Part shown: one piece after another, positions 26,381 to 64,000 of the stretch
How positions within the stretch are numbered: the first letter of the stretch is position 1
How the letters are laid out: the number at the start of each line of letters is the position of its first letter
From: Schizochytrium sp. TIO01
Taxonomy: Eukaryota > Protista > Bigyra: Labyrinthulomycetes
NCBI GenBank assembly: GCA_004764695.1
Contig: SMSO01000032.1
Coordinates: forward strand, 2,108,001 to 2,172,000
Direction: 5' to 3'
Length of the DNA: 64,000 nt
The notes under the pieces: generated by a model
What the model was told of the DNA's origin: nothing
Database searches by the model: none
What the model saw: only the letters and a program-made list of their open reading frames with translations
Position numbers and translations under genes: made by a program

Positions 26381-26559
26381 AGATAGATAGATAGATAGAC
26401 AGATAGATAGATAGATAGACAGACAGATAGACAGATAGATAGACAGATAGATATACAGATAGAGAGATAGAGAGATTATCATAGACATACAGATAGATAG
26501 ACATATAAATAGAGAGATAGAGAGATAGAGAGATAGAGAGATGAATAATAAATAGATAG
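26381..26559. repeat. Degenerate (AGAT/AGAC)n microsatellite
   Basis: Visible tetranucleotide array. Confidence 0.95.
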
Positions 26560-26576
26560 TGGACAATGATAAAATG

Positions 26577-36500: not shown

Positions 36501-37602
36501 GCCCAAAAAACGGACTTCAAGGCTAAGCCTAATCCAAAACTTTTTGGAGAAGCTTCTTGATGAAGCCCCACATGCTGCTAAGCATGCTAACACTCTTGAA
36601 CGGTATGGTGAGGTCTGGGTAGAAATTGCTTCGATCGGTCATGACGATTTACTCGAATGCGGGTCAACTCTCAATGTTCCAGCACATTTGATTCATTTGA
36701 GTCTTGGCGTGCGCAGTCCTGCCGACAAGGCTCCAGATGGCTCTGACTTGCCCTCAATTGGGATTCCTGAGGGATCAGCAGTGCCAAATATTACACCTTT
36801 GATTAAGGCAACACGGTTTTTTGCCAAATCATCATCGTTAGCACCACTTTCTCGTTTTATGTTAGGGTCTGAGGCGTTTCTTGCCTCGGTTTTCACTCTT
36901 TACTCTACTGGTGAAGAGGGGATGCAACAGCTCATCGAGTCTCACGTTGAACGCCGTCTTTTTGAACCAAGCTTAGTATTGCGTCGAGGCTTGGTTGAGA
37001 TTCGTGAAAATGCTGGCTTCTGTCAATATGCATCTAGCACATCATCTGGGGAGCGTCCTAAGAGAGCACATAGTGCTTATAATCTTCTATGCAAGATGGC
37101 CTCAACAACAGAAACGAACGAGGATCTAGTAGAGTATACACGCATTATTTGCGAAGCTCCACTTGCGGAGTTCAAAAAGACCACATCTGGTTCTTCAGGA
37201 ACTAATGGTCAAGAGGAAGAAGACTTTATCCAGATTCATGCCAAGGGTATAGTTGCTGGGCAAAGTGCTTTTGGTGTAAGCCAGTACTTAGTTTTTGTGA
37301 TTGCCGTATTTATTGAAATTCTAGATCAGAATTCTAGTTTTGCAAGTGCATGGTTGTCCGAGAACCTGGAAATTTGGGAGCCATTGTCACGTTGGCTTAA
37401 GCTGGTGTCTCCGCCTCATAGCAAGGGTTATATCCAGGGGTTTTCTGAGGGCTTCGTTGAGACCCTTGTAAGGAAGATGGCTGATTTTCGCCAGGAGCAT
37501 TTAACTGACATGGACCAGATTGAAGATGAAGGAACTCCTACTGAAAGTAGCACGAGTGACAAGGATGAGGTGAAGAGCAATGCCGAGTCTACATCAAATT
37601 AA
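27564..37602 (+). CDS. Giant ubiquitin-specific protease (USP9X/USP24/USP34-like) with RanBP2/NZF zinc fingers; exons 27564-29928 and 29990-37602 (~3,325 aa)
   Basis: N-terminal NZF WNCSACTFLN...CEIC; Cys box GLRNRGSTCYINSLLQ; QNDTSEF; His box GVLVHRGRAGGGHYYS; WFRFDD. A 61-nt intron 29929-29989 (GTGCGG...TTTTTCGCTGCAG) exactly restores frame between ORFs 27558..29945 and 29872..37602. Confidence 0.85.
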
Positions 37603-43532: not shown

Positions 43533-44447
43533 GCAAGCGGAGTGTATGGCTAAATCCTTGATTGTGCATCATTAGCTCTTCTCCATCCTTACTTAATGTG
43601 TGAAGTTAGAGATTGACAGAGAAACAGCGGTCAGATATATCAGAATCCGTTTCTGATGATTTATAATTTGTCGCTGGCTAGTTGATCTCTAGAAGGATTC
43701 AACAATCTGCTCTTCATTTACTCTTGCTAATTGACAGCAGCAGCAGCAGCAGCAGCAGAGGTGTACCTACGTCTGAACTCATTGTAAGACCAGCTGATGC
43801 GACTCATGCTCATCTGTTGATGCAGCGACTCTTTGGCTTGCGCGTATATTTTCAAGTTCAGAAGTGAAGCATGCTCGAGCCTCGCAATATGGGTTTTGGT
43901 GGTTGGTTGACTGGCAGTTTACGTATGCAGGAAGAATATAATATCTCTCTTGTAATGTTGCTGTATATGCGAATAGACCAGCAAGAAAAGCTCCTTTTGA
44001 GCTTCCCGGTCTCTACCTGTTATACATTAGGGCTAACTTCATTCTCTTGGAGGGATTGAGCGCCCTTGAAACCCAACTTACGGATTTTTTTACTAGACAG
44101 ACATCCGTAGGTGTCTCGACAGACAGGTCTATGACCGAATACTTGAGAGAAGCGACACATGCTGCTCTTCTCAACGAGTTTTATTGAGACAGCCTAACAT
44201 CTCTGTGCTAGTTTCAGTTTGCTTATGCAGAACCGTGAAGCACGGACCCCTTGATTGGCACAGAGAAAATCTGTGGCTGATCTTAATTTAACTCGAGGAG
44301 GGGGTAACTTCCCCCCTCTACCCTCTCATTTCATCAGACCACGGATCAACGATAAACGTAGTTGAGACCCTTGTCTGCTTTGCTGTTTTAAAGGGAAGCC
44401 TCACTAGCTGAAGCCCGGATGCGTGGAGTGAGCTCATTACGTGGTAG
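43533..44447 (+). ncRNA. Highly structured RNA region (long 3' UTR of RPC31 or separate ncRNA)
   Basis: At least 10 helices, most with plus-strand G-U pairs, e.g. 43607-17/43681-91, 43772-79/43855-62, 43922-30/43961-69, 44200-13/44253-66, 44270-81/44333-45. Confidence 0.5.
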
Positions 44448-45911
44448 TTCTGTGACAAATACAGTGAAGTTTTATCGCATACCCCTCTCGTTATCTTTTC
44501 ACCCTATTTTAATTAAAGCAACAATACCTAAACTTCAAAACTAGATTTTTTTTTAAATTAAAAAAAAAAGAAACACCTACATGATAGATACCTTTATGTT
44601 TACAGGCAGCCTTTCATAGACAGCTGTACTAGATCTTGTCAATATGAAGACTACTTAATTTCGAGAAGCATCGAGAAAAGGAGTGCACTTCACATAAGCT
44701 TCTCTGTAAAGGTCGATCTGGAGTGAGCCATAGATATAATTCATTTATTGTCTTGCCCGTCTTAAGACTCAGCATTTGCAAAGGCATCGTTGAAATGTAT
44801 GTCTAGGTCTCGGTCGCGCCGTCTTCACGCTTGTCGTTATATCGTTTCTCCCCAAAGCAAAGCAGAAGGCGTGTTGTGCGCCAAGTCCATGAGGAGGCCA
44901 GCCATGGCACGCCTTGGGGGATACTTTTTGCATCTCTTCAACCCAACTACAGATGTTGTCCTCCCTTTGCATTACAACCAAGTCTCCGCGGATCTCCAGA
45001 CAGGGCCAGTCTTTCATGGAGATCCAGCTCGCCAAGCGACCGTTGCGAGAAATCAGCCCCCTCCATCTATTCAGTATCCTTGCCCAAGAATCCAAGAACC
45101 CAAGCAAGATCGTCGCTGTTCTTTCACATCGCTGGCGACCGCACCAACGGCATCACCAACTACAAACTGCGTGCCTCCGAGATCCATCCAACGGCTGCTC
45201 GAACCAAATTGCGCTCCCCCATCGCGGTCTTCTTTCTTGGCTGCCTCAGCCTTTCCCGCAAAAGGAGCGAGAGCTAGCTAGCTAGCGAGCTCATCATCGT
45301 ATCGTTGGTTGCATCTTCTTCTGCAGGACCCTCAATTAAATCCGTTATCCCCTTCATTCATTGCACCTCTCAACGGCCGCTCTCGCAAGCTCGAGATTCT
45401 TGGCGAGATGGGTGGAGGAGACTAGGGTGTCTGTCTGTCCTCTCACGTGCTTTGCGTTCGCTCGTGCCTCAATGAGCAGATCCTGTGCACATGCGCATTG
45501 GCTGGCTCGTCTCCGCCTCCCTGGGGCTCTTTCCGGCAAGCACCTGCCTCGCCTTCTGCAGACAGACCCGCAAGAATCGATCTGTATCCATCATACATCC
45601 ATCCATCTGTCGGTCTGTGCGTGCCTCGGCGGACATGGATCTCGTTCTTCCCCGCCGTTATTCCATCCTCGAGATACATAATGCCTTCGCGAGCGCCGCA
45701 ATCGACGGCTCAAAGAGCGCTCTCATCGCGGTCCAACTGTTGCCCATCGCCGACCAATGAACTCCTCCAATCCGTAACTGACGATCGGCCAAGCAGCAGC
45801 AACATCAGGCTTTCCAAAACTTGGCTTCGCTTTCGAAGTCTTCGCTTTCGAAGTCTTCGCGTTGCTTCGCATCGCGAGATACTGCGTCAACTTCAAATCA
45901 GTCGTCGAGGC

Positions 45912-45956
45912 CAAGCAAGCCAAGCAAGCCAAGCAAGCCAAGCAAGCCAAGCAAGC
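45912..45956. repeat. (CAAGCAAGC)n tandem repeat
   Basis: About five 9-bp units. Confidence 0.9.
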
Positions 45957-46955
45957 TCCAGTCAGCTCAGTCGGTCAGTCGGTCAGTCCTCGGGCTCGCA
46001 TTTCGCAGCCTTCGCCGCCGTCGCTGCGCGAGCTGGCTGCTGCCGGAGGCGCTCTGCTGCTGCTCGGTTGGCTTCTGCTGCAGCCGCTTCTCGAAGCTGC
46101 AGAAGGGCGAATGCATCCAATCCCAAAGCATTCATTCATTCATTTCTCTCCTCCTCATCCCAATTCGTCCCAGCGCAGGACTCCGCGGAGCAGGAATTAA
46201 CTACTAACCGCCATAATAATAACAACAACAGCAGAGGAGTTTCAAATTCAAAAAGATAACAGACAGACAGACCAAGACCATCGTTCAGTCAAGCTCAAAC
46301 TTGCTTGTTTACTTACCTTATTTTGCAATTCCGCCGCGTCCGTCCTGAACACGCAGAAAAAGCAGTCGAGCGGCCAAACTTACTTTTGCAATTTCGTCGC
46401 TGGTGCTCCAAAACTGATCATTAACGAACGACTCGTTATTATTTTCATACCTATTTATTGTTTTAATCTTGATCTTGTTTTATATATGTATTGTTATTGT
46501 TGTTATTTTTATTTTAAAATAAAATAAAATAAAATAAAAGTATTTAATTTAATTTGTATCTTTTAAAAATAAATCAGAAATAAACAAAATAAAATAAAAT
46601 AGAACAAAAAACGTGTCCTCTCTAAGACTCACTTACCCACCAAGTCAAGCTTTGGTAGTCCTACTATAACTAACTAACTAACTAACTACCTATGCGACCT
46701 TTAACAGTCCCAGTCGTTAGTACGTAATTTGGCAATTGCGCAGCATTTGGGAAGATACGCGAAGAAGCCTCATATTCTCGCTAACCCTTCCAGGAAAGCG
46801 ACGGGAGATGGAACTGAGCACAATGTACTGCATTTCGAGAGCAGGGCTGCAATAAGAAGTGCGTGGACGCGGATCTGCTCGATGTCTGCGTCCTGGACTC
46901 TCGAAGAAGACGCCGCCAAGGGTTCCTCCGCTCAGCGGGGCTTTTCCCTTTCATC

Positions 46956-47133
46956 GCATTGCATTACATTGCATTACATTGCATTGCATTGCATTGCATT
47001 GCATTGCATTACATTGCATTGCATTACATTGCATTGCATTGCATTACATTGCATTGCATTACATTGCATTACATAGCATTGCATTGCATTGTATTACACT
47101 GCATTGCATTATATCAATTGCATCGCATTGCAT
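46956..47133. repeat. (GCATT/ACATT)n pentanucleotide array
   Basis: Visible array; explains the spurious 'HCIAL' ORFs. Confidence 0.95.
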
Positions 47134-48619
47134 CTAAGGCTTCATTCAAGGCGCGCTCAAGAAGCACCGCGTTCGATCTCTGTGCCTTGGAACTCTAGCC
47201 TTTGTCAGCTCTGCAGTTTCCATCCCATCTCTGCGGCTGAAGAGTGCTGAGCGTTGGGGCAACAATCATTATCGCATCGTCTGAGCTGAGAGGTCTTTCT
47301 GACTTCCTTCCTTCCTTGCTTCCTTCCTTCGTTCTTCCTTCGTTCGTTCGTTCTCCCCATTTCTTGCTCGAAACTCGGCGACCCGGCAGCAGACACGCAC
47401 GCACGCACACGCACACGCACAGGGCTGAGCGTGCATACGCGCTCGCTCGCTCGCTCACTATCGTCGATCCCTTCGAAGGCTGCAGGTGCGCTTGGCAACG
47501 GAATCAGCAGCATCGTCGCTCTCTGTCTCTTTCTCTGTGTCTCTGAGCGTCTCTGCTCCGCCTTTCTTTCTCTCTTTCTTTCCCAGCGCCCTTCATCATT
47601 CACTTCTTTCTTCATTCCAATGGCACGGACCGATCGTTGGAGGGTTGCGACAATCGAAAGACAGCCAGTTGGATAGTTCGACTGCTAGAAGTCACCTACC
47701 GGGACCTAGCACCCGTATCTGGAAGGCGGGTCTTTCAAGGGGGTCTTTCACGTGCGCAGAGTCGGAGAATAGGTGGCACTGGGGTCGTAGCGACTCTATG
47801 TACAGTCTTAGAGGGAGCGGAGAGTAGTCTGCTAGAGGTTTGCCCGAGAGTAAGCGAATAGGCGGGGCTGTGGGGGTACCCGCTGGTTTGCAAACAAAGA
47901 AACAAAGAAACAAAGAAGTTAGGTTGAGAAACAACATATATGTACCACGATGGCAAGGAGTCTTCTGTCTTTTGAGGGGAAGGAAGGAAGGAAGGAAGAA
48001 AGTCCTCGCGTCTTGCTTGATCTTGGTTGTCAACTAAAGCAGCTGCCTTTTAGGAGAACATTCGTTGGTGAACCGCTAAAAAGAGGCGGCTTCTTTGCTA
48101 TGTTGAGACTCGAAAGCGCGATACGTTCGACAATCCTGTGTTTGTACTGGACTCAAAATCCTTGTTTTGCTTGTTCTGCTCCATCTTTTGAGTTTCTTGA
48201 TATCGATTTTTAAATAAATAAAAAGCCAAAATTGAAAAATGCTTTGCACTTCCCAACTCCAACTCTGCTCTTACTCCCTTCGTTATCACTACAACAACAG
48301 ACAATGTAGTACCGAGAGTAAGTAGACGTTGTTCCATGAAAAGCTAAAACAGAGCAAAGAGTGAATAAATTTACAAGCTCAATCAAAGTACTTTCTTCAA
48401 AATTGAAATTATAACTAAATAACTAAATAACTAAATAACTAAATAAATAAATAAAAGAAGTAATAAAAGAAGTGAAATGAAACTTGAATCCATAATCATA
48501 CCAAAACTCCACAAGAGAAGAAGCGAAATGAATAAAGCACTCGTGGGAAAACTATTATGGCAAGCAAGATGATGAAGCAATCAATTAATTCAAGCGCAGA
48601 CAGAAGAAAGGACAGAAGT

Positions 48620-48664
48620 GAGTGAGTGAGTGAGTGAGTGAGTGAGTGAGTGAGTGAGTGAGTG
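48620..48664. repeat. (GAGT)n microsatellite
   Basis: Visible array. Confidence 0.95.
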
Positions 48665-49493
48665 AGAGATACACAGCGTACGCGTAGCTCATTCGCCCCT
48701 AGTCACTAGGACGTCAACTTCTTTTTCAAAGAAAGCGGCTTGCTTCTATTGCTGAAGTGTAGCTCCCGTCCAATTTTGCACTGCTCGAGACTCTGCCTGA
48801 GATCCTCAGCGTGAATCAATGCAATGCAATTCATTCACTCTCCCTTGCCATGGTCCAACTTTCCAGGGAAACAGAGCATGCCTCGAAAGCATCGGGCTCT
48901 CGCCAATCAGTTCGTTCAACGCAGCCGCGGGAGACCAGCCAGCCAGGCCTCCATTCCAACCAAGTCGCCAACTTAAATAACAGTCAGACAGACAGACAGA
49001 CTGTCTGACAGAGAGACTTGAACTTGCGAAGGCTTTCTTCGCAAAGCTAGCTCAGATCGCGAAGACGAAGACGGACCAACTTATGACGTAGGTCGCGGGG
49101 GTACCCCTGGGTCTCTAGCAATGGCAGTATCTTGTTATCCCCCCTTCTACCATGGCCTCGCAGTGCCATCAACGCACCGCCAATAATACAGGAACCGCGT
49201 CTTCGGGCTCCAATAAAGCATTCATTTTCATTCATTCACTCACTCATTCATCCATACTCGAGCCCGAAACCTCAAGATTGGTCGATCGATCGACCTATCT
49301 TCGAATCGAATCGTTCGTTCATCGAGGAGATCTCATCGCATTAGGCCCATGCGTGAGCGAAAGTATGGGCCTCCACGGAAACGCTACAGGCAGAAGGCGA
49401 GTATTGGAGCGCGCGCGGGGACTTTGGCAGCAGCGCCAGAGAGCTCGAAGGAAGGTTAGCTCTCCATCTGTGCATGTACTCTGCGAGATAGAC

Positions 49494-49619
<126 letters not shown>

Positions 49620-49740
49620 ACAGATAAACAGGTTCACTCGCACTTACGAAAAAGCACAAGAACTTTTAAAGACTTTACAAGCGCAACTAGCCATATCGCT
49701 ACAGCTAGCTAGGCTAGCTAGGCAAAAGAAGAGAGGACAA

Positions 49741-49853
49741 AGAGAAAAGAAAGAAAGAAATAAAAGAGCAAAGAAAGAAAGAAATAAAAGAGAAAATAAA
49801 GAAAGAAAGAAAGAAAGAAAGAAAAGAAAGAAAGAAAGAAAGAAAAGAAGAAA

Positions 49854-49889
<36 letters not shown>
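49741..49889. repeat. (AAAG)n purine tract
   Basis: Visible degenerate array. Confidence 0.9.
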
Positions 49890-51854
49890 CGGTCCGATTG
49901 CTCTCGTAACTAAGAGCTGCAGTGCTCTTTTCGAGCCTGCCAGCTTAGGTTTCCCCAGCCGGCGCAGAGCTTTCAGGCCTTGGCTGCTCATGCTCAGGCG
50001 CACTCCAAGAAGGCGAGGACCTGGAGACCTGAGGAGCTCCCGCCCCGCTCGAAGGAGTAGCTACGTGGATGCATCCATCCATGAGGCATGCATGCATGCA
50101 TGCATGCATGATAAACAAACCAACAAACAAAGAACGAGAGAGAGAGAGTGTACTTGATCATGCGCTACGAGTCGGCTAAGGCTTTGCCTGCCTCGCACGA
50201 AGAGAGGAAATAAAGAGAAGAATTGGAATTGATCTTTGAGGGAGGAAAAAGGAACCGTCGCAGAACTGGGAATGCCGGAATAAACTTGAACAGGCGGCAA
50301 AGAAATCGATCAAGAAGAGAAGAGAGAGCATGGAAAGAAAGGGCACACGCCGCTACTACGCTCCTCGAGGAAACGGTGGGAGGGGACGGGTAGAAAGCTG
50401 TCTCTTCTGCTTCTTCTCTTTAGCTGCTGCAGGGCCGCCCACTTCGACCTTTTGCTTTCTTTCGCCACGAGGTTTGTTTTCCTTCTCATGGTCTGTTTGT
50501 TTGTTTGTCTGTTTGTTTGCCATGTCTTATCATGCAAACGGTCTCAGTTCTCTCGCATTCTACTTTTTCTTTGCTCTTCAATCTTCTATGTCATGTTCAA
50601 TGCTCAATATTGTTTATTTAATTAATTGAAATTAAGAAATTAATTAACATCAAAAAACAAATTATTTATACATATACATAGCGATTCTCCGTGGAATTCG
50701 CAAGAATTCGCAAGAACCCGGAGTTCTCGCCGCTTCCCTCCTCGAGCCGACCTCCTCGCGAGGAAATGTAAAGGCGCTCTGCGAGGAGCGACGTGGGAGC
50801 AAGCAAGGGACGTGGAACCTGGAGCTACGCGCCCATCAACGTCAGCTTGGCTGGGGAGCTTTCTTCGCTCAATGCGCAAATGTGATGATGCATTGGAATC
50901 CGATGTGGTGCAAATAAAGCAATGTAATGCAAAGCAATGTAATGCAATGAATGCTTTGATCTAGTTAAAAAAAATGAAAACTAGAAAGTATACAGATTTG
51001 TATATAGCATTCATCATAATTCCTTCTCACTTGAAACTCATCTTTTTCAAGTTTGTGCATACTACAGCCATTTGGAGAACTTGGAGTCCAGTCAAGCAGC
51101 TCGATAAGTATTTATAGGAGGCACCTTGAGGCAGACCTCTTCGCGGCTGCGTTTCTGAGGGTTTGGGCATCGCCACACGAGACACCGTGTGCGCTTGTAA
51201 TTCTCCATATTCATTATAATAACCTTTGCTCTTTAATTTCTGCGTAAAAGCCACGTACGTACTCCTAGTAGAGAGTTCGAAAGAAGCAGGGTGTGTCTCC
51301 TATGTTTTGCCTTCACAAAATATAAATAGTACACATCTCAATCATGGCACTGAGGCCGCGGCAAAGGAGCACCTCGGGCTCCTACATTATGGCCACGCGC
51401 GGAGAAAGCAGACCAGGTCCACGGTTCTAGCTCCTCCATACACTCACTACGTATACCTACTTGACGGGAAGCGGTGCTTCTCCAGTGTTTCCACACAGCT
51501 TTGCAGAAGAAGAGGCCTCGCTGCTTTTATAATAGGAAGCTCAGGTTGGCTGCTGCTATTTCCATCAAATGCAATTGTTTCTTGCATTGCATTGCACTGC
51601 ATTGCATTGCATTACACTTGCCATTGCATAGCTTTGCATCGCTTTGCATTGTTATGCACTTGCCATTGCACTGGCCCTGTCCTCATCCAGCGCCTTCTTC
51701 AGTCGGCAGCAGCTGTTCATCCCGTCCAGGCTTTTGCGAGTCTCAGATCTGGAATATCACATCACATCCACTCTTCGCTCGTACCAAGGACCCTGCAATC
51801 ACGGTCGTTTACAATGCCAGAATGGTGATTCCTCGCCTTTCTTCTCATGGCCTT

Positions 51855-51888
<34 letters not shown>

Positions 51889-53784
51889 CACATCATGGGC
51901 CTCTTTTCTGCGTTGCTTTCCTTTCCTGACTAGTTCAAAAAATCATGCTCAGCTCTTCGCTATGGTGAAGAGAGAGCCAACTTAGCGTACATCCGCTTCG
52001 ATCGCGTCTATTTCCACGAAAGGCGGATTTCTCCCTTCGCGCTGCTAGCACAGATGACACGAGTGCTTCACGAGAGCACCTTCTCCTTTCTCCCAAGCAA
52101 GCGGCGTGAAAGCTCGCTCGCTCGCCCCTCCTTAGCTTTCCAACCAATCTTAAGCCAAAAGTAGACTTTAGAATGCATTCATTCCTTCATTCCTTCATTC
52201 ATTCATTCATTCATTCATTTATTGTATAAAACTAAAACAAAACGAAGAAAGAAAGATACACGCAACTACTCAGCTCCTTTCTGAAGTCTCTCAGGCGGCT
52301 CGGCGCCTCTGCGGCTGCCCATCGCGACGGCGATCGCGAGGAGTTCAATCTTTATTCGCTCACCCTGCCGGTGCAGCCCAAGCTGAGGGAGTCTCCGGGA
52401 AGGAGGAGGGAAGGAAGGGAAGGAAGGGAAGGAAGGAAGGGAAGGGAAGGAAGGAAGGAAGGAAGGAGGAAGGGAAAGGAGAACAAACAAACTTGGAGAA
52501 GCTTCTGCTGCTTGCTTTTGGAAAGGGTAGGTAGGTAGGTACTTCTTACAGCGCCAAAACTGACGAACTGACGAACTGACGAAGGAAGTATGTATGCTAT
52601 TGTCGAGCACAGACGTTCGAGGGCCAAGCCAAGCTCAGGCCAGTGAAGGAAGCCTTCTCAGAAGCCTCCCTTTACCAGCGCAAGTACTGCGTTGCTCGAG
52701 CGTGAGGGCGAAAACATGATCGATTCACAGGAACGGAGCGGTGGGGAAGCGGAGCGGTCTATTACCTCTATTTGTATTTGTCTCTTTTTTATCATTTTGT
52801 TGTTGTTTACGTTTTAAAATGATCTTTTTAAAGTTTTAATTTAATTTTTTTAGTTTGTAAGTAAATTGAATTTTAATTGAAATGTTTATAAACAGGTTTT
52901 TGTGGATGGGTTTTGTAAAATAAAATAAGCAAAGCATTGATTCATCTCGTTTCATCCATGAAAGCGAATGTGGAAGCCTGAATGTTCTTTAGGGCCGCCA
53001 TGGTTCTTTCGTTCTTTCTCAGATGTTGCATTGCACGAGGATCCTCAGCATCGAGTAGAATGAATGCGCAAGAGAACGAATCTGCATACTATAATTTCAG
53101 AAGGCGAGCGATTGACTCACTCACTCTCCATTCACGCACTTGTCTTCGATAGACGCAATCGTTGAGACGCTCGATGCACAGGTGCTTCGATGGTCTCATT
53201 CATTCGCTTCAGTGACTTGGATTCTTTCTGCTCAAGAACTGGCGCTGTAAGCTTAAAAGAACAGAGCGGGTTACTCCTAGCAAGCCTCGTAGCTGCTGGC
53301 GCCTAGGAAATGTTTTTCTGCTGAAGAACATCCATCTTTTTTGGAACAGGCCGGTTCTCTGCCTCGTCCAAGTAATGAGTGCCTCTTAACGCACGCTGTA
53401 GTTCCCTTCTTGTGCATATATATATCCATTGAGGCAGGGTCGAGGCCTCCTTTCTGAGGAGAAGAGGGCTGCGAAAGCTGCAGCCACAGAGAAGACAGCG
53501 ATTGGATCGAGTCTCATCATCGTGCGATATCTGGTGAGGTCGAGGTCTCGAAATCAACGGCGCCGTTGAGTTTTCGACGTGAACTTGAAACAAAACCATG
53601 AAATCTTCGAATGAAGCTTCTACCTAACTGACAGACTCGCTCGATCAGTCTCAGAGACGGTCCTATCTCTCGAGCGTAAGGAGCCCTACGGAGAATCTAA
53701 GACAGAGTCGCCGGATTACTCTCCTCCTTCTCCTATAAAAAAGCAAACTGAAAGCGGCACAAAGAGAGAAAACTCGCCATTTGT

Positions 53785-53849
53785 ACATACATGCATATAT
53801 ACATACATACATACATACATACATACATACATACATACATACATACATA
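53785..53849. repeat. (ACAT)n microsatellite
   Basis: Visible array. Confidence 0.95.
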
Positions 53850-53860
53850 CACGCATAGAC

Positions 53861-54004
53861 AGATCAATAGATCAATAGGACAATAGATCAATAGATCAAT
53901 AGGTCGATAGATTAATAGATCAATAGATCAATAGGTCGATAGATCAATAGATCAATAGATCAATAGGTCGATAGATCAATAGATCAACAGATCAATAGAT
54001 CAAT
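53861..54004. repeat. 8-bp minisatellite (AGATCAAT)n with 32-bp higher-order variant
   Basis: Variant unit AGGTCGAT at 53901, 53933 and 53965. Confidence 0.9.
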
Positions 54005-57000
54005 AATTGTTGTGTGCTGTTCTTTGGATAGAACAGAGCGAAAACGCGCACTGTGGATCTGTCTGAGGAGGAGTGAGTGCACTCAGAGATTGACCGACTC
54101 GTTGTTTCCCTGCCATCGCGAGGTTTGATTTGCGAACGTCTTGATGGCCACGAAGGCTTCAAGCCGCCGCCGATAAGAGGAACCCGCGGTCCCACGGTCT
54201 GAGTGGCAGCCTCGAGCGTGTTATTTGGTTCCGCGAGGGGCTCAGGCTCTCGAAAGCTTGACCAAACGGTAGCGCATTACACGCGAGCAAGCAAGCAAGG
54301 AAGCAAACAAATTGCAATTTGCAAAAATTGCAAAATTGCAATTTTACACTATGATGTTTTCTAAAAGCTTTTAATTTAATAGAGGAAAAAAAAGAAATGA
54401 AGAAAACCAATAAAGAATCAGTCGATCGATCGATCACGATAAGTTTGGGTAATCACGATCGTGATGACGCAAAGCCTTCTTCAGTTCTTCAGTTAAGCAG
54501 ATAGATCAGACTCAAAGCACCTGATACAGAGCAGCCAGGCGGGAAGCGGCCGCAGGCCCACGCAAGCAGACTTGAGATTCGATGCCCTGCCGCTGCTGCT
54601 GGGAACGCCCAGCGCAGCGCTGGGACTGCTTCTGGTGCCACGAATGCAAGATTTCGCCAAATCTGTTGCCAATTCCAGTGCATTCCTATGTACTTACCCT
54701 TCGCTCCCTTTCTCTTGAATTAAAAAAGAAAGAAAAACAAAAAAACAAACGTTTTTTAAATAAAATTTTAAAATAAAAATAGAAAACTAAACAGAAAACA
54801 GAAAACAGAAAATAGAAAGAAAAAAAAGTGAAAAGTGCCTTGAGCTTAGCTAGGCGCTCTAAGAGTAACCCGTTCCTTCGGGTCCTCTCTAGCAGAGAGA
54901 CAGGGTTCCTCTATCTCTGCTATCTTTCGAGGAGATTGCTTTTTCTTTTTTTCTTTTTGCGTAGAAGGTGAGTGATCACGATCTGAGGCAAAAGCGATGC
55001 GAGGCCCTGCAAAGGCACGCTCTCTCTCTCTCTCTCTCTCTCCCGCTCTGTGCCTTAGGCTCGCTCGCTCGCTCGCACGCACGCACGCTTAAGGCGCAGG
55101 ACCCTCAGAGGCCGGCGAGTCAGCGGCCTTCGAGCAGGGACGCAGCAGCGGAAGGGCCGCTTGACGAGCGAAATCTCGCCAAGTCCCCACTCTCTGCGCT
55201 CTTCTGAAAGGCGTACAAATAGATAGATAGATAGATAGAATAGATAAATAGATTGATTTAGCCTGAGTGGATTATCTTCAACTTCGACTACTCTAAGTGT
55301 AATGTTAAAAATTCTGAAGAAAAGGTAAAAAAACATACACGTACTCTCGAACGGCATCACATCAGTGCATTACATCCGTGTCATCATAAATGGAATGAAA
55401 TGGTTTAATGGATGATACAGTTTGACGTTGAGTGGCTGAGCTATACCTTCTATTCCCTGCTAGTTAGTTATCTATTTGCATGACGGGGATCATTGGGATT
55501 TGGTGGGGCGAGTGAGAGAAGAGCTGATTAGTTAATTATTAAATATAGTGAACAAATCAAATTAACGAATGAATGATCGATTAGTGGGAGGTGACTCTCT
55601 AATGTTGCAGATTGCACTGCACCGCTTCAGTCTTGTTAGCGTATTCTGCAGTCAGTCGTTAATTCCTTCACTTTTGCAAGAGGAGAGAAAGGAAGAGAGA
55701 TCGAACCCTCAAGAATGAATGAAGGAATGCATCGCCTACATAACAAACTAACGAACTAACTAACAAACTAACTAACTAACTGTCTGACTGGGAGCGCCGA
55801 GGTGCCGTGTGCCCGCATCTCCACCCACAGTGATGGGCTTTCCGTGAAGGCTGTCATTGGCAGCGGCCACTGTTGTCTCCCCGCAGCCAGGTAGCACTCA
55901 CATAATACGGACCGCTTGCTGGCCTCGGCAAAACTTTACGTCCCCACAGAGGCCACGAATGTTGGCTGTGGGGACCTTTTCAGGACTATCCTTCGATCAG
56001 TCCTCTGATCAAGCAAGTAGGAAAAGATGGAGGCATTTCTTTTCCTTCCTTTTCCTCATCAAGCCATTACTACAGTACACAAACTTGAAAACAAAAACAA
56101 AGAAACAAAAAGCAAAGCAAAGCAAAGCAAAGCAAAGCAGAGCAAAGCGTGACAATAAAAAGTTCGACAGGACGTGTTTGTCCACCAGCTCTTTTCCACT
56201 TCTGTTCCAATTTCAGGTCTGATTTTGCTTTGAGGACAGACCTCCGTTCGCCATGGAATCGTGGCGGTGCGAGGACAGAGGGCGCCGCTCGCACTCCACA
56301 GGCATGTCGAAGCATACGTACGGACCTACCATTCATTGACACTCGCGAAAGCGCGTCTGGTCTCCACTTTCTTGACTGATTGGTTTTGATTGATTGATTT
56401 AGCCCAGTCGAGCTGAGAATGAATTCGTTCTTTTCGAAAGGCCGAAGGAACGTTTCCTTTTCGCCTTCTGTTGAGCTGGTTTTTTTTAGACTTTAAAATT
56501 AATTTGAGTAATAACAACAGTAACAATGGAAAGGTAGATTGATGCAAGCTCAGAAGAATGATAACAATGGCAAGAAGCGCGCATTTGACAGCAAATACAT
56601 GTGCTGCCGAGCTCTCGAGCAAGCAGTATCTCACGCGAGTGCGTCTACGTAGCAGCAGAGGGCTCTTTGACTCGCAATCCAAAGGCCACCGTTAGTCAGT
56701 CAGTCAGTCAGTCAGTCAGTCATAGATTGCAAACTTTGTTATTATGCGCTTTCCAAGGGAATCGTACCGTCTTTTAGGGCTTGGTAGAAGTACCGCCAGG
56801 AACTGGAAAATGGCACGTAAGTATGTAAATGTGGGCCGTTGAGCGTGGAAAAGAAGGGAAGCAAGCACTCCGTTCCATCTACTCTCACTTGCTTTGGCTT
56901 GAATTTGGGGGTCTAATGAACGCCGGTCGAGCGCTTTTTCGCGATTCTCATCGGCGGTTTGCGATGCTCTTCAGAAATCAAGAACTGGGAGCAGAGCACG

Positions 57001-57751
57001 GCAAGCAATGAATGGGAAGGAAGAATCGCTCGCACTGCTTATGCAGGCTTTTATATGTATTAATTTTTTTAGTTGTAACTTTTTCATTGTAAAGGAGAGA
57101 AGAAAAGAGAGTAAAATCAGTTTGTTGAAAATTACATTAATTCGCAAAAACAAACACCGGCGGTGCGGAATTTGGATAGAAAGATAGACAGACAGACAGA
57201 CAGACACAACTTAAAAAGAAGCAGCAAAGGAAGACAAATGTGTTGTTCTTCAACTCTTAGCATCGTACACAATGAACATCAAACCACCAGGGAAGGAAGA
57301 AGAAGCATACTCCTTTCCAAAGACAGTCCCAGATACAGACAGAAGAAGCGCGGCGGCAGAGCAGCGCGCAGGCCAGTGAGTAAGCAAGCCAATCAATCCA
57401 GCGACAGAGGCGAGTTCATTACTTTTCCAGTTCTTCTTTCTTTCTTTTTAGTTATTGCTCTTATTTCTTTTAGGAGTCAACAGAGAAAAAAGAATTGAAA
57501 AAAGAAACGAGAAAAGAAGAAGAAGAAGTGGTCGCCGACCAAAAAGAAACCCGTTTTCGCTCCTGAAGTTCGAGGCTGATTTGCAGACTCGCACGCGTAA
57601 TCAATCTCTCAGGCGACAGGTCTCTGAGAAACTTGATGGCGCCACACGAGTTTGTGCAGAGACAGACACAGAGAGAGAGAGAGAGGGAGAGAGAGACGGC
57701 ACACGCACTGGCGCCAAGAGCGATAAAAGAGCTCTGCTCGCGGGATTTACC

Positions 57752-57826
57752 TATTTATTTATTTATTAGTTTATTTATTTGTTTATTTATTTGTTTATTT
57801 ATTAGTTTATTGATTTATTTATTGAT
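57752..57826. repeat. (TTTA)n degenerate microsatellite
   Basis: Visible array. Confidence 0.85.
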
Positions 57827-58265
57827 TGCCTACGTGAGAGAGATCATGATGGAGATTGAAACACGAGGAAAGAACTAGGCAGGAAAGTAACAAGTAACTA
57901 ACCGCCTCAGGCGCTAACTTCCTACTGTAAAGTCTTTCTCGCTTTGATCGTTTGTTTCTTTGTCGCTCTCTCTAATTAGGCAGATAGCTGCAATTTGCAA
58001 ATTACACCTTGATATGGTTGGCTAAGTAGGCAGTAGCGAAGATGTTTTGTAGGCTTCTATATGAGATTGATGTACCGATTTGGAAACTTTCTGCATACTG
58101 TGAGGCTAATAGTTGATCATTCTCTGAGTCAGACGAGTAATTTAGGATATATTTATCTCTATCATGTTTTTTTTTTTTTTTTTTTTTAAATTAAAAAATT
58201 GGTATGTTTTATTGAAAAAATAATTGAAAAAGTAATTAAATTTCTGAATATAAATATAATATATG

Positions 58266-60719
58266 AATAGATTATTAAAGGTATAGTCGTAAACAAAAAA
58301 AATTAAAGAAACAGTTGGAGTTAGAAAAATAAAGAGGAATTCCAACGATCGCTCGATCGTTCTTGAGCAGTCAAGGCAAACAGTACAAGCGATTTTGCAG
58401 CAACCTCAACCAGGCAGAACCACATCAAGCCTTGGCGTCACGACCCAGCTAGCGCAGAGCCTTGCCACCGACCCCTCCAGGATTCCAAGACTCTATCCAA
58501 AGAAAGAAAGTCTACTCGTTCGCGCCTCTCTCCGTTGGTTCTTTCCTTGATCGATTGATTGAAACCTCCTGCCATCGAGAATCGCCAACGCTCAGAGAAC
58601 GAGAGCACGTCTACCGACAGCAGCAAACCCGAATCACCAGTGTGCCGGCCGAATCTCCAGACTTGAACCCAGACGGAGACCAGAAGATCTCCGGAGCTCA
58701 CTCACGTGGCGCCGACTCGCACTCGCAGACTCTGCAAGACTGAGCGTACTTCTACTTCGCTCTTTCGTTCGTTAAGCGAAGCAAGCACTCACTCTGTCAA
58801 TCAATCAAATCGTTCGCTCGCTCCATCTTTCCTTCCCTCTTGTAGGCGAAGGCTCACTCGAACAAACTATACACCGATCTCACGTCTGAAGAGACGAGCA
58901 CATAAGTAAGGCCTCGCAGGACTTGGGAGCTCCTGCAAATCATCTCGCGAAGCTCTTCGCTCAATAGCCAGAAGCATCGAAGAATTGAGAAAGGACTCAA
59001 GAACCCTTCCTGGAACGTCAGATCCTGTATATAGAATATACAGAGATTATATACCTTCTTCTTTTACATATTCTTCAAATTCATCAAGGACTTCTTCCTT
59101 CACGTGGGAAGGCAACCGCGGTGATCAAAACCGGTAAGTTACAATAACTACACAAAGACATTGGTTGAGATCGATTAATCGATTGATCAATCATTTATGC
59201 TCACAGCACTCCGCAAGCGTGACGGCTATTCATCAACTGAAATACAGTTGATAGTCAGCTGTGTACTTGTCAAAGGGTAGCTGTTGCCTGTGAAGCCACG
59301 CCGAGTGAGAACGCGAAATCTCGCTAGTGTCCTGACGATCACGGCCGCAGTACCAGTTTGTATATTGTGATTGATAGTAGTTCTTAGAGACGTTTAAGAG
59401 GGTATGAGGGCCTAAGTATATAATTGCAGGTGGCATTGAGAAAAGCAATTGCACTGTAGTGCAGTGCAGTGCAGTACATACTCCACCCCTCTACCTTGGC
59501 AGCTCTCCACAACCAAGTAGCAAAAAATTAGGAGCAGTATTTTCTTGCCATCTCAATTTGGGGCACAAGAGATCGCCTATTACTCGGGCAGCACCAACCG
59601 ATCGCTTGCTGCCGAGCCCAGCCTCTTGCCACCTTTAACAACGCACTCCTTCTGCGCGCCCTAAAGGCGAATAAAGGGAAGTAAGGAAGCTATCATTGGC
59701 CCGACCAGTGAGACCAAAGACGGCAGGGACACAAAGAATTTGGGTTGTTGAGAAGAAATTAGGAATTGGCGACTCAATTAATTAGTCTTTTCCTATTTCG
59801 GGTGAGAGAGTGCGCGCGAGAGTTCGCATCACAAACGGAGAACCGCCAAAGACCCTCACGAGGGTCTATAAACCTTCTTCGTTGATCTATGGCTAGTATA
59901 GCTGACGCACTCAAGAGCATTCACACAGCAGTGCTGCCACCCACCCATCTATCATACCTGCCCTCACGTGGCCCCATCTTCCGAGGAATCGTTGGTTGAC
60001 CGCACAGCAAAGGCCAGAAAGTAAAGGAGGCCAAGAGCGCCACCATTCGACAAGGCTCCGGCAAAGCAAAGGCTGTGTGCTCTCCGTGCGCTCCCATTGC
60101 TCTCACTCTCTAAGAACTATTAGTACTACATTTGGTAGATAGAATTAAGGGAGTAAATTCCTAGTTCCGCCGCCCCTTCAGTACACCACCCATTGACGGC
60201 AAGAGCACGCGTTGCGCTGATTCCCGTTAGCGAATACAAACTTTACTCAACTAACTGATTGACTAACTGACTGACTGACTGACTGGCGCACGGCACAATC
60301 AAGCGCATTACATTTCGTTTACTGACACAGCAAGTAGCATTGGCATTCATTCGTGCATTCACTTTGAGCCTGTTGAACACCTGTGATTTGCAGTTAGTAT
60401 TAGCTGCATCTCAACCACTTGGCTAAAGCAGCACTAATAGCACTTGCCGACGCAGCAGTAGTAGCTTGACCACACTGAGTCTCTGACGGAGTCTAAGGCG
60501 GCTACGCTTCGCTTCGAAGACTATCAGCTGTCGCTTGGTAGGACTTTACTTCTTCTTTCCTTCTCTATTTCTTCTTTGTCTTCACTTTCAGCACTACTTT
60601 CTTAGCACTTCACGTAAGGAAGAGACTAGGAGTACACCTTTGATTGAGAATTGCAAGAAGGACACGAGTGGTGAGAAACTCACGCACTAGTTTTCTCTCG
60701 TAACTTCGATCAGCATTAC

Positions 60720-60753
<34 letters not shown>

Positions 60754-61718
60754 CCTGCTGTGACTCTCGGCGCGCGCGACGTTATTGGTTAATTCCTTTT
60801 TCTCTCGTTTGCCTTCGACCTCCCTTCTTTACTTTTTCTTAAATTTTTTCCCGACACCACACTCCAGAGGCATCACCGCTGTAGTGGTCAAATAGGATAA
60901 ACAATAGAAGAAGACCATAGTTCCACGTGGACTGTGCTCTCGCAAATTGATTAAAGCTTTTATCTCAACAAGGCACACTACTTCAGGTACCTTGCCGCCA
61001 GCCAGCCAGCCACCCGAGCGAGATTAACCGTCTTCTCGCACGCAGTTGAGTGGAAAGGCTTGACAGCAGATAGGAGCAGCAAGCAACAAGACACTATCCA
61101 CAAGCAGTCCCTGCCTTTATTGAGGTCTAGCGTGGATCAAGTCTCCTTTCTTTCTCAACCGTTGCTAGCGAAAGACCGGATTGGTTCAATCAGGCATTCA
61201 CAGCATCGCGTTCCCAAGTAGTGTGTTCATCAGGCAACAACTACTTTTACAAACTAAAACAAAATAAGCGCTGGTCCTCCCGAAAGGAAAGAAATTACAG
61301 CTCAGCAAAGAAACAATCCGTGACGAGTGGCGGAGGACAGACAACTGAGCGGAACGCTACCAGCTAGCCACAAGGAGTGAACTATTACCTACCCTCAAGT
61401 AAGGGAGAGTGAGTGAGAGGAATTCCTTCTTGCTTGTTTGTATAACCAGCCAATTACCTTTCTCGTAAGAGTCGGGGGACCAGTCAACAGTTCTCGATTC
61501 GTTCGACAGAGGTCTGGGTACTGGGCACATTACTCGAACAGTAGGGAATCAAAAATACCTAACACTATCACAAATCCAGCAAACACCAAACTCTAAGTGG
61601 GGCAAAGGCACCAAACAGAGAAAAGCAAAACCAACACACGGCAAGCAAAGCAAGGTAGCTGACGAGCTGTTTAGTGCATAGTAAGAACTTTTGTATTCAA
61701 CAACAACAACAATACACA
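58266..61718 (+). promoter_or_regulatory. Putative very long AUG-depleted 5' leader of the zinc-finger gene, with candidate intron 59134-59928
   Basis: Only three plus-strand ATGs (59197, 59404, 59889), none from 59892 to 61718. Donor G|GTAAGT at 59134; GCTGAC branch at 59901; CACACAG acceptor ending 59928. Confidence 0.65.
60721..60753. repeat. (GTT)11 microsatellite
   Basis: Visible array. Confidence 0.95.
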
Positions 61719-62603
61719 ATGTCTAACACGTCCACGCAGGCCTTTAGTATTGCAAAGACCAGCCCTGTGCCGAAGCCAGGTAGCAGCAGCACCAATAACA
61801 CTCCTAGCCACAACCACGAAAGCAACAAGTCCAACAAAATGTACCGCTGCAAAACGTGTAACGAGGAATTCGTCCACAGAAATGTTCTCAAGACACACAA
61901 CGAGACGATGCACAGCTCAGTCCGTGTACCGTGCGACCAATGCGACAAGACCTTCACCACTAAGAGCTCTTTGCGCCTTCACAAGGAGGCCATCCACGAT
62001 GGTATCCGCTACCAGTGTAACTATTGCGACAAGAGCTTCGGACAACTCGGTAGCTTGCGCAGGCATATGAAGTCCATTCACCCCAGCATGAAGGCCGCCC
62101 GAGGAACCAACGATATCATGCGTAGTGCTAGTGAGAAGTCACAATCGGATGAGTCTACAATCAGCACTCCATCTCCGGTATCTCGGAGTCTTCCTCGCAC
62201 CCCTTCTGCTCTCGGCGCTGGTGACTCCTCCCCTCGGTCCACTGGATCCGAGTCCACTGCTTCGCTTCTTTCAGTATCTGGTTTCAATGTCTCTCCTTCG
62301 GAACTCAGCAAGTCGTCGAAGAAACGCCTTGCCCCCACAGATTTGATGAAGCAGTGGCCTGGTGCAAGTCCTAAGCAACGTCGTGCATCCACCGCATCTG
62401 CTTCCCCGATGCATCTTGAGGAATTCGCAGAGTTTTCTGACATGGAGGCTGAACAAGAGGAGGTAGAGGAAGAAGACTACCAGGATCAGCAGAATATTGA
62501 AGACGTTAACGAGGAGTCATACGAGGGTCCTTATCTAACCTTCAATTCTGCAGAGACACAGGCCATCGCCATCCTTGTCGGCATGCAAAATAATCTTCTT
62601 TAA
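61719..62603 (+). CDS. C2H2 zinc-finger transcription factor (3 fingers)
   Basis: First ATG at 61719 (ACACAATG). Fingers CKTC..HNETMH, CDQC..HKEAIH and CNYC..HMKSIH, then Ser-rich and acidic regions. Confidence 0.9.
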   Translation: MSNTSTQAFSIAKTSPVPKPGSSSTNNTPSHNHESNKSNKMYRCKTCNEEFVHRNVLKTHNETMHSSVRVPCDQCDKTFTTKSSLRLHKEAIHDGIRYQCNYCDKSFGQLGSLRRHMKSIHPSMKAARGTNDIMRSASEKSQSDESTISTPSPVSRSLPRTPSALGAGDSSPRSTGSESTASLLSVSGFNVSPSELSKSSKKRLAPTDLMKQWPGASPKQRRASTASASPMHLEEFAEFSDMEAEQEEVEEEDYQDQQNIEDVNEESYEGPYLTFNSAETQAIAILVGMQNNLL

Positions 62604-63679
62604 GCTTTTGCATTTATTGCGGTACCATATGTCCACTAGCCAAGCTTGGCACCATGCGCGAGGCTGAGCAAATTGTCTCCATTTTTTCGCGATCACCTAC
62701 CCCAACTTTTCATTTCAAGCTGGAAAGGTCTGACTACTCATTTTATTTTTCCATACCTTTTTTACCTACTGGGCGGACGCTCAAAGACACACTCGCCATG
62801 CCATCTCCTGTCAGAGCAGCATTCAAGAAAAAATACAGAATAGATCTTCTATATCTATTTTCTCAAATAGCGCTCTTATGGTTAACTAGATGGTGTGCTT
62901 TTCCCATGAAAACACATATGCTTTATGTGCATTTCTTTCTCTTTATACAACATGCTATGGCCCTCGCGTATCATGGTAGTATGAAAGAATATGTCTTTTG
63001 GGGCACGATTCCGCTCATATTTGTTGCCATACTTACTTTCCTTTTTTTCCCTTTTACAAATTACCTTTCTTTTAGCTATCAGCTCGCCTTCCATTTTTCT
63101 TTTCTTTTACTCACATTCTTTAGTACGATCACGAGACCGTTTATCCTCTTTTCTTACAAACTTTAAAGTAATTTGTTGTTTCTTTATTCTTCATCTTGTG
63201 ATTTCTATATTACTCTCCCTTGCAAGTTCAAGGTATACACTACAAAACCATTGCAGCGTTCAAACTACTGTCGCAACGCATACAAATCAACCCATACACA
63301 TTGAAAAATAATTTTATAAGTATGCCATAGTACATTTTGTTTTCATCATTTCAGAATTTTACTTGCAGCTTTTGCCACTTCAGAGTTGCAATCTTGAGAA
63401 CTTGGTTAGCAGGACTTCGAATGATCATCGGACTTTTGCTCGAAAGAGGTTTAACTATTCAAACATCGCCTCTACTGACCTCTTCTCTGGAGAAGTGAAA
63501 TCTCAAATTCTCCAATCCATCTACACCACACATGTTCACTGGCTATTCTCATGACAAGGGGCTTGTCATGGGTTTCGTAGGATTAATTGCACATGCCACT
63601 TCTTGACCTGAGGTGTTGTAAATGCTAGTTGGAAACCCGCGGCTTCAAAGCTTAGGTTGCACCGGTTCAGTAATTGCTT

Positions 63680-64000
63680 TCACATGTTAGCGCCCTCATC
63701 TTGAGTATTCTTTAGTCCCTTGATAAACAAACCCTTGCGAGATTTGTGGTCTTTCTTATTTTTCTTTTTCTTCTTTCTTCTCTTTTCCTCATCACGAGAA
63801 CCTATAGAATTGTTTTCGTTTTCCTCCTCATCATCACTCAAGTGAACTCGTTTACGATGTTCATTTTTAGTTTCAGTGGTGTCCATCTGCACATCATGAG
63901 AAAATTCATCAATGACAAGCCCTTCTTTTTCTTTGTGATTTCTTTTCCCCTTTTTGCGTTTCTTCTCATGTTTGCTCTTGCTAGAATGCTTTTTGGAGTT
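63680..64000 (-). CDS. 3' end of a Lys-rich, probably nuclear/nucleolar protein (5' part outside the window)
   Basis: Frame open from the window edge (NSKKHSSKSKHEKKRKKGK...) to TGA at 63680, 107 codons including stop. Confidence 0.65.
   Translation of the reverse strand, partial: NSKKHSSKSKHEKKRKKGKRNHKEKEGLVIDEFSHDVQMDTTETKNEHRKRVHLSDDEEENENNSIGSRDEEKRRKKKKKNKKDHKSRKGLFIKGLKNTQDEGANM

What the first reader, a model, noticed from the sequence alone, without database searches (positions are those of the whole stretch)
58266..61718. Multi-kilobase, strand-specific AUG desert leading to the C2H2 transcription factor
Reading line by line, the plus strand has no ATG from 59892 to 61718 (about 1.83 kb, roughly 28 expected) and none from 58266 to 59196. 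The reverse triplet CAT occurs about 20 times in the 1.83-kb stretch. The first ATG reached is the zinc-finger start. Such strand-specific purging is the footprint of a scanned 5' leader, here 1.8-2.6 kb long, two to three times the CDS. It implies selection for a giant AUG-free leader, perhaps acting as a scanning delay, helicase dependence, non-AUG uORF control or protein-binding platform. With the USP leader, it may represent an undescribed translational-control design in this lineage.
Basis: partly seen in the sequence, partly recalled or inferred. Interest (0 to 1): 0.8.

Follow-up and report, generated by a model that had tools for sequence, protein, structure and literature searches.

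The report
Two-kilobase AUG-free leader of protist regulator
In a marine protist, about 2,100 bases of spliced transcript in front of a zinc-finger regulator gene hold no AUG start codon, likely because ribosomes scan this giant leader end to end, a design already described for the Candida regulator WOR1.

Summary
In detail: 59892-61718 holds 0 ATG against 14.9 expected, with 23 CAT. Transcript contigs from three studies cover 58387-59133 and 60331-63148 and splice out a 1,197-nt GT-AG intron (59134-60330) that the DNA run keeps. The gene is a three-finger C2H2 protein of a thraustochytrid (51% identical to a Hondaea protein). Best reading: purifying selection against upstream AUGs in a long, scanned leader. 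Other leaders in the window are purged too (1 ATG in 945 nt of five unselected leaders; 1 in 939 nt before the USP locus). The design is known: Candida WOR1 has a roughly 2-kb leader without AUG uORFs, and this scan noted a 1.65-kb fungal case before. I found no thraustochytrid report. Unexplained: the intron is itself ATG-poor (3 against 17), which hints at a second promoter, an alternative splice site or intron retention. The start site, full-length molecules and any regulatory role are untested. New member of a known kind.

The parts
58150..58340 (+). AT-rich patch with a TATAAA at 58249-58254; candidate promoter of the long transcript (inferred). The last upstream ATG is at 58263.
   Evidence: Sequence; RNA-type contigs begin 124-196 nt after the last ATG. 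Contig ends are only a weak hint of a start site.
58387..59133 (+). Leader exon 1, non-coding, 0 ATG; contig 5' ends at 58387, 58431 and 58459 in three studies
   Evidence: table 8 (X8, X9, X1)
59134..60330 (+). 1,197-nt leader intron (GTAAGT ... ACTGACACAG). It holds the only three ATGs of the interval and is itself ATG-poor (3 against 17).
   Evidence: Joint 59132>60330, GT..AG, in 3 of 3 RNA-type runs and 0 of 1 DNA run; ends checked; shuffles
59197..59280 (+). Intronic AUG uORF, 27 codons, weak context; present only in unspliced RNA
59404..59415 (+). Intronic AUG uORF, 3 codons
59889..59999 (+). Intronic AUG uORF, 36 codons, weak context; last ATG before the 1.83-kb desert
59867..59872 (+). 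TATAAA inside the intron, 17 nt before the last ATG; candidate second promoter that would give a 1,827-nt AUG-free leader (untested)
   Evidence: sequence only
59901..59928 (+). Candidate branch point plus alternative 3' splice site (GCTGAC ... ACACAG); its use would give a 2,537-nt AUG-free leader. No such joint was seen.
   Evidence: absent from the joints (contigs drop rare forms)
60331..61718 (+). Leader part of exon 2, 1,388 nt, 0 ATG, ending in a CAA-rich stretch with A at -3 of the start codon
   Evidence: One contig spans 60330-63148 in X8 and X9 and 60330-64000 in X1
61719..62603 (+). CDS of a 294-aa C2H2 zinc-finger protein, likely a transcription factor, with a conserved C-terminal AIAIL motif
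   Evidence: Pfam zf-C2H2 E 8e-15; 51% identity to a Hondaea fermentalgiana protein with an N-terminus of similar length
62604..63148 (+). 3' UTR up to the contig end in X8 and X9; not ATG-depleted (13 in 545 nt)

Best explanation
The desert is the 5' untranslated region of a C2H2 zinc-finger gene: transcript contigs join a first exon (about 58.4 kb to 59133) across a 1,197-nt intron to a second exon running into the CDS, and these roughly 2.1 kb hold no AUG, likely because cap-dependent ribosomes scan the whole leader and selection removes any AUG that would capture them. Shown: the strand-specific absence of ATG, the splice joint, contig cover from the leader into the CDS, and that splicing removes all three ATGs. 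Inferred: that the start site lies near 58.3-58.4 kb, that one molecule carries the whole leader, that initiation is by scanning, and that selection rather than mutation did the purging. The leader is likely long because this regulator gene has an extended, probably multi-start control region, as Candida fate regulators do. The purge is the same rule that acts on the short leaders of neighbouring genes, visible here because the target is ten or more times longer.
For: 0 ATG in the 2,135-nt spliced leader against 15.8 +/- 3.3 in 3,000 shuffles, minimum 6; 21 CAT. The intron joint is in 3 of 3 RNA-type runs from 3 studies and absent from the DNA run. GT..AG on the plus strand fixes the strand. 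The 3' UTR (13 ATG in 545 nt) and three coding-region introns (7 ATG in 477 nt, 6.4-7.8 expected) are not depleted, which argues against a mutational bias of the transcribed strand. TTG, ATT and GTG are over-represented (O/E 1.3-1.5), as reported for uAUG-purged leaders (PMC7889888 section 7). Five leaders not chosen for a desert hold 1 ATG in 945 nt against 14.3 expected. ATG gaps end close to contig 5' ends at three long leaders: 124-196 nt here, 51-80 nt at the USP locus, -17 to +10 nt at the P-type ATPase. The start context is strong (A at -3) and matches the Hondaea N-terminus. Precedent: WOR1.
Against: The runs are only guessed to be RNA by the tool, though their GT-AG joints argue that they are. 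Contigs show neither start sites nor single molecules, so an additional start near the CDS is not excluded. The intron is also ATG-poor (3 against 17.0 +/- 3.2; 0 of 3,000 shuffles reach 3 or fewer), which one spliced isoform does not explain; given three ATGs, their all falling in the intron has a chance of only 0.04. If the longer X8 contig upstream of the primase gene (736 nt, 24 ATG) is counted as leader, the five-gene purge disappears (25 ATG in 1,531 nt). The one relative with DNA (L001) has only a 381-nt ATG gap and 1.47 kb between divergent starts, so the giant size is not shared there. Strain differences were too few to show selection.
Confidence: 0.78

Rival explanations
1. Add-on to the best reading: the gene makes several leader isoforms, and choosing between them tunes translation. 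Splicing gives a 2.1-kb AUG-free leader. A second start after TATAAA 59867 or an alternative acceptor at 59928 gives 1.8 or 2.5 kb, also AUG-free. Intron retention inserts three short uORFs that would damp translation or trigger decay.
For: The intron is ATG-poor, unlike three other introns (Fisher P 0.008). The desert begins just after a TATAAA and just before a branch-point/AG motif. In run X1 the intron contig starts at 59247 and is not linked to exon 1. All three RNA-type runs hold intron contigs.
Against: Only one joint was seen in 3 runs. Intron cover is expected from pre-mRNA alone. TATAAA and CTGAC..AG motifs are short and common. The intron could instead be former exon that was recently intronised.
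Confidence: 0.35
2. The leader is an active translational control element, like WOR1 or UME6 (repressing) or EFG1 (activating), working through bound proteins or non-AUG uORFs. Its length is selected for that role.
For: A 2-kb leader sits on a transcription-factor gene at the end of an 18-kb stretch with no ORF over 192 aa, the same gene class as in Candida. The leader has 47 near-cognate codons with a purine at -3.
Against: No unusually stable local structure: mean z -0.22, 0 of 34 windows below -2. No Rfam match. The longest stop-free stretch is 96 codons against 104 in shuffles. No conserved block was found against L001 (best hit 18 nt, E 0.015). In yeast, unstructured leaders of 50 against 500 nt differ only twofold (PMC12415969 section 7); 2 kb was not tested there.
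Confidence: 0.35
3. Most mRNA starts close to the CDS. The long spliced RNA is a minor upstream isoform, and the desert is kept by that minority or is a relic.
For: Contigs cannot show a start inside a continuous unitig (tool note). EFG1 has long and short forms (PMC6034079).
Against: A complete purge over 2.1 kb implies that selection reaches exon 1. Exon-1 and joint contigs have mean word depths of the same order as the exon-2/CDS contig (joint 210-305, exon 2 268-523); the tool warns that this cannot rank parts of a gene, so it is a weak hint only.
Confidence: 0.12
4. The mRNA is translated by internal entry near the CDS, and the leader is not scanned.
For: Very long leaders have often been proposed to act as IRESs (recalled); a CAA-rich stretch precedes the start codon.
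Against: Internal entry would remove the need to purge AUGs 1-2 kb upstream, yet the purge is complete to the 5' end.
Confidence: 0.03
5. Chance, base composition or a DNA-level constraint.
For: The AT dinucleotide is under-represented in the leader (O/E 0.6), which halves the expectation from 31 to 16.
Against: Shuffles that keep dinucleotides never fall below 6. CAT is present. The desert matches the transcript structure.
Confidence: 0.01

Closest known systems
Candida albicans WOR1 5' UTR (PMC4552353; passages read)
   Same: Leader of about 2 kb (1,978-1,997 nt) on a transcription-factor mRNA, stated to contain no AUG-initiated uORF, in a genome where most leaders are short.
   Different: Unrelated protein and lineage (fungus against stramenopile). 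WOR1's repression of translation is shown by deletion and polysome data; nothing comparable exists here. This leader is assembled across a 1.2-kb intron that holds the only AUGs.
Long leaders of C. albicans EFG1 (up to 1,170 nt), CZF1 (1.7-2.1 kb), UME6 (3 kb) (PMC6034079 and PMC4552353 passages)
   Same: Kilobase leaders on regulator genes. The single AUG uORF reported in the EFG1 leader is absent from strain SC5314.
   Different: The EFG1 leader has a mapped 218-nt activating element and long and short start sites; here no element is mapped.
General depletion of upstream AUGs in eukaryotic 5' UTRs (PMC7889888; passages and section 7)
   Same: AUG is the most depleted triplet, near-AUG triplets are enriched, and purifying selection is the accepted cause.
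   Different: There the depletion is partial and strongest near the CDS. Here it is complete over 2.1 kb. Cryptococcus and Neurospora have long leaders that are AUG-rich (PMC7049704 passages).
Earlier scan note e1-7702234: 1.65-kb ATG-free stretch before a fungal Zn2Cys6 gene
   Same: Same pattern: a kilobase ATG desert ending at a regulator's start codon.
   Different: Another genome, no RNA evidence there, an unchecked AI note; not independent support.

Membership tests
Long AUG-free 5' leader of a regulator mRNA (WOR1 type) | Transcribed, non-coding leader over 1 kb on the gene's strand | tested here: met
   Contigs of 3 of 3 RNA-type runs cover at least 2,063 nt of spliced leader, with a GT-AG joint on the plus strand; no stop-free stretch above chance
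Long AUG-free 5' leader of a regulator mRNA (WOR1 type) | No AUG in the mature leader | tested here: met
   0 in 2,135 nt against 15.8 expected
Long AUG-free 5' leader of a regulator mRNA (WOR1 type) | Downstream gene is a transcriptional regulator | tested here: inconclusive
   C2H2 fingers and thraustochytrid homologues fit a transcription factor; DNA binding was not tested
Long AUG-free 5' leader of a regulator mRNA (WOR1 type) | The main start site is the distal one and single molecules carry the whole leader | not testable with these tools
   Only assembled contigs were available; no raw-read runs were listed
Long AUG-free 5' leader of a regulator mRNA (WOR1 type) | Leader changes translation efficiency (deletion, polysome shift) | not testable with these tools
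   Needs reporters or ribosome profiling
Spliceosomal 5' UTR intron | GT-AG ends, joined in RNA and not in DNA | tested here: met
Non-AUG N-terminal extension | Long open frame continuous with the CDS upstream of the AUG | tested here: not met
   Only 20 open codons before an in-frame TAG; the Hondaea homologue has no longer N-terminus
Structured cis-regulatory RNA or IRES | Known family match or unusually stable local structure | tested here: not met
   0 Rfam hits in 43000-64000 at gathering threshold; 0 of 34 120-nt windows with z below -2. Long-range structure and covariation were not tested.
AUG-uORF control (GCN4 type; recalled) | AUG uORFs in the mature leader | tested here: not met
   None in the spliced form; three appear only if the intron is kept

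The most novel reading that the evidence does not exclude
Thraustochytrids obey a near-absolute first-AUG rule, purging upstream AUGs even from kilobase leaders (2 ATG in about 4.0 kb of seven leaders here). Their regulator genes use leader architecture as a switch: splicing or start-site choice in a 1.2-kb leader intron turns an AUG-free, fully scanned 2-kb leader into one with three uORFs. ATG deserts would then map giant leaders and master regulators in this lineage from DNA alone.
Probability: 0.2. Interest if true: 0.62.

Novelty: new member of a known kind. Interest (0 to 1): 0.36.

Why it matters
It shows a natural, RNA-supported 2-kb leader with no AUG outside the Candida regulators, in a distant eukaryotic lineage, so the pairing of master-regulator genes with giant purged leaders may have arisen more than once. 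Such an mRNA is a ready test substrate for how far 40S subunits scan: the yeast length series I read stops at 500 nt. Thraustochytrids are industrial DHA producers, and one paper reports mRNA-protein uncoupling under nitrogen depletion without examining UTRs (PMC13234984 passages). Practically, strand-specific ATG deserts appear to mark transcript 5' ends in this genome. The mechanism itself is textbook, which caps the interest.

Tried and rejected
No whole genome is held, so no genome-wide desert scan or functional enrichment was possible. One search listed no holder on record as RNA: 18 of 22 runs are guessed RNA, all are contigs, none raw reads. The three RNA-type runs have no cover over about 56400-58380 where the DNA run has cover; this is noted only as a control against DNA carry-over. 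Strain differences: 25 listed substitutions in 58437-61473 were checked (12 in leader exons, 13 in the intron; 53 further rows were not shown). None creates an ATG, but only about 0.5 would be expected, so this is uninformative. The metagenome scan with the single protein found nothing. The alignment scan gave 11 loci, of which only L001 matches at high identity (63%; the others 28-40%); it has an extra N-terminal finger and may be a paralogue. Four other loci checked (L002, L003, L007, L008) have longest ATG gaps of 178-325 nt. The Hondaea locus DNA could not be obtained. Rfam: no hit. The bacterial promoter scan is irrelevant to this eukaryote and empty. The leader has no similar copy elsewhere in the window. 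Hidden coding on the spliced leader, a non-AUG extension and local structure were rejected. Earlier-finding look-ups for this genome, for thraustochytrid words and for the Hondaea protein returned nothing. My first coordinates for the ATPase intron were one base off and were corrected to 12492-12663.

Full report
Observation. The plus strand has ATG at 58263, 59197, 59404, 59889 and then 61719. The 1,827 nt from 59892 to 61718 hold 0 ATG and 23 CAT. Dinucleotide-preserving shuffles give 14.9 +/- 3.1 with a minimum of 6 in 2,000, and 60 order-4 Markov simulations of the window give a longest gap of 496 nt on average, 662 at most. Over the whole interval 58266-61718 there are 3 ATG against 33 expected, the lowest ratio of all 64 triplets.

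Context. The window is eukaryotic. The ORF 61719-62603 encodes 294 aa with C2H2 fingers. Among the 10 hits, the closest named one is a Hondaea fermentalgiana protein (51% identity over 87%), then Mucochytrium and unnamed proteins, so the organism is a thraustochytrid. The four likely DNA runs that hold the stretch total 63-64 million letters, like the 63-Mb genome of Schizochytrium (Aurantiochytrium) limacinum (PMC7179369, search listing only); the species is my inference. The Hondaea protein starts at about the same place, and all homologues share a C-terminal AIAIL-type motif. Between 43532 and 61719 there is no ATG-started ORF over 192 aa (these ORFs were not scanned against Pfam).

Transcript structure. 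I laid 3 of the 18 runs guessed to be RNA (three studies) and 1 of the 4 likely DNA runs on 55001-64000. All three RNA-type runs show one joint that skips 1,197 nt with GT..AG ends; the DNA run does not. The intron is 59134-60330. Exon-1 contigs begin at 58387, 58431 and 58459, which is a weak hint of the start site, just after an AT-rich patch. One contig runs from 60330 through the CDS to 63148 in two runs and beyond 64000 in the third. All three ATGs lie in the intron. The spliced leader is therefore 2,063-2,135 nt (2,256 if the start is just after ATG 58263) with 0 AUG and 20-21 CAT; 3,000 shuffles give 15.8 +/- 3.3, minimum 6. Limits: the runs are not on record as RNA, contigs show neither start sites nor single molecules, and 14 rows of the contig table were not shown.

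Is the purge specific to leaders? The 3' UTR has 13 ATG in 545 nt. Three coding-region introns found have 7 in 477 nt, against 6.4-7.8 expected. So transcription alone does not remove ATG. I laid two of the runs on 8001-28000 (16 table rows not shown; two leader ends were read from the 'from_end' column). Five leaders not chosen for a desert (186, 83, 386, 140, 150 nt) hold 1 ATG in 945 nt against 14.3 expected, and that one lies at the very 5' end. The USP-locus contig starts at about 26625-26654 (from record offsets), giving about 0.92 kb of leader with a single ATG 8 nt before the start. Against this: in run X8 the primase contig extends 736 nt upstream and includes 24 ATG; counted as leader, it cancels the five-gene result (25 in 1,531 nt). 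In X9 the main contig stops 150 nt upstream, so I read the extension as another RNA, but that is not shown.

What the leader is not. It has no long open frame (96 codons against 104 in shuffles), only 20 open codons in frame before the AUG, no Rfam match and no unusually stable local fold (0 of 34 windows with z below -2). The only relative with DNA and high identity, L001, has a 381-nt ATG gap before its start. That is the longest of seven starts checked there, but the intergenic space is only 1.47 kb and there is no sequence similarity. The giant size is therefore not universal in the family; L001 may be a paralogue.

The open point. The leader intron has 3 ATG against 17.0 +/- 3.2 (0 of 3,000 shuffles reach 3 or fewer), fewer than the other introns (Fisher P 0.008). 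Ribosomes may therefore read intron sequence in some isoform, or the intron may be former exon. The 1.83-kb desert starts just after TATAAA 59867-59872 and just before a branch-point/AG motif ending at 59928; these would give AUG-free leaders of 1,827 or 2,537 nt. Retention would add uORFs of 27, 3 and 36 codons, all ending well before the CDS. In run X1 the intron contig begins at 59247 and is not linked to exon 1. None of this is decisive.

Mechanism. Most likely the capped mRNA is scanned from its 5' end to the first AUG, 61719, which has A at -3. Any earlier AUG would divert ribosomes, so selection removes them along the full leader (inferred; confidence 0.78). Internal entry is unlikely because it would not need a purge 2 kb upstream. 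Whether the length itself regulates translation is untested. In yeast a tenfold longer unstructured leader (50 to 500 nt) costs only twofold (PMC12415969, abstract and section 7), and scanning above 100 nt per second has been reported (10.1101/2021.12.08.471614, search listing only), so a simple scanning delay is a weak candidate.

Comparison with what is known. Upstream AUGs are depleted in 473 of 478 eukaryotes, and near-AUG triplets are enriched (PMC7889888, passages and section 7); TTG, ATT and GTG are enriched here too. In Candida albicans, long leaders mark fate regulators: WOR1 1,978-1,997 nt with no AUG uORF and reduced translation, CZF1, EFG1 and UME6 (PMC4552353, PMC6034079 and PMC11878023, passages). 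Cryptococcus and Neurospora instead have long AUG-rich leaders (PMC7049704, passages). This scan noted a similar 1.65-kb fungal case without RNA data, and that note led me to PMC7889888. For thraustochytrids I found no report. 'Aurantiochytrium' with 'upstream AUG' gave 0 papers. 'thraustochytri' with 'uORF' gave 2: in the one I searched, uORF appears only in a reference, and the other, a review, I saw as a listing only. Searches listed nothing on their leaders or this gene. The library lacks most subscription papers, and no supplements were read.

Verdict. It works like the WOR1-type long AUG-free regulator leader; the functional criteria of that class could not be tested. New member of a known kind, interest 0.36. 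The boldest reading not excluded is a lineage-wide strict first-AUG rule with a splice or start-site switch in the leader intron (probability 0.2, interest 0.62).

Noticed in passing
window 26574-27563 (+): USP-locus leader: the transcript contig starts at about 26625-26654, matching the 982-nt ATG gap. The only ATG is a two-codon uORF at 27556 whose stop overlaps the main start (TGATG), a possible reinitiation or leaky-scanning device.
   Followed up: partly
window 27564-37602 (+): The USP locus is split into two overlapping ORFs in different frames (793 aa with a weak RanBP zinc finger; 2,561 aa with a UCH domain), while one contig of about 11 kb starts in the leader. An intron, an assembly indel or a frameshift is possible; the junction was not covered by my read laying.
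   Followed up: no
window 11986-14646 (+): P-type ATPase gene: a 172-nt intron (12492-12663) moves the true start to 12372 (700 aa), not 12607. Its leader of about 360-386 nt matches a 369-nt ATG gap.
   Followed up: yes
window 24395-25700: Both RNA-type runs hold contigs here without a clear gene; the minus strand has stop-free frames of 187 and 111 codons. In X9 the contig is 2,349 nt long, of which only 975 lie on the window.
   Followed up: partly
window 22352-23087: In X8, but not in the main X9 contig, transcript cover extends 736 nt upstream of the primase gene across an ATG-rich stretch; possibly a separate or divergent RNA.
   Followed up: partly
window 43533-58265: 14.7 kb without a convincing gene upstream of the C2H2 gene, with recurring AT-rich patches and many tetranucleotide and pentanucleotide microsatellites; looks like an extended control region. 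The 738-nt ATG gap at 46882-47620 spans a TGCAT repeat.
   Followed up: no
window 62550-62600 (+), protein residues 279-290: A short C-terminal motif (E-x2-A-x-AIL) is the only part outside the fingers conserved in all eight aligned homologues; it may be a co-repressor binding motif (guess from recall).
   Followed up: no
window 63334-64000 and 56808: Strain differences: loose contig ends at 63442 and 63781 in one DNA and one RNA-type run suggest an insertion or repeated element downstream; a 24-nt insertion lies behind 56808 in the DNA run.
   Followed up: no
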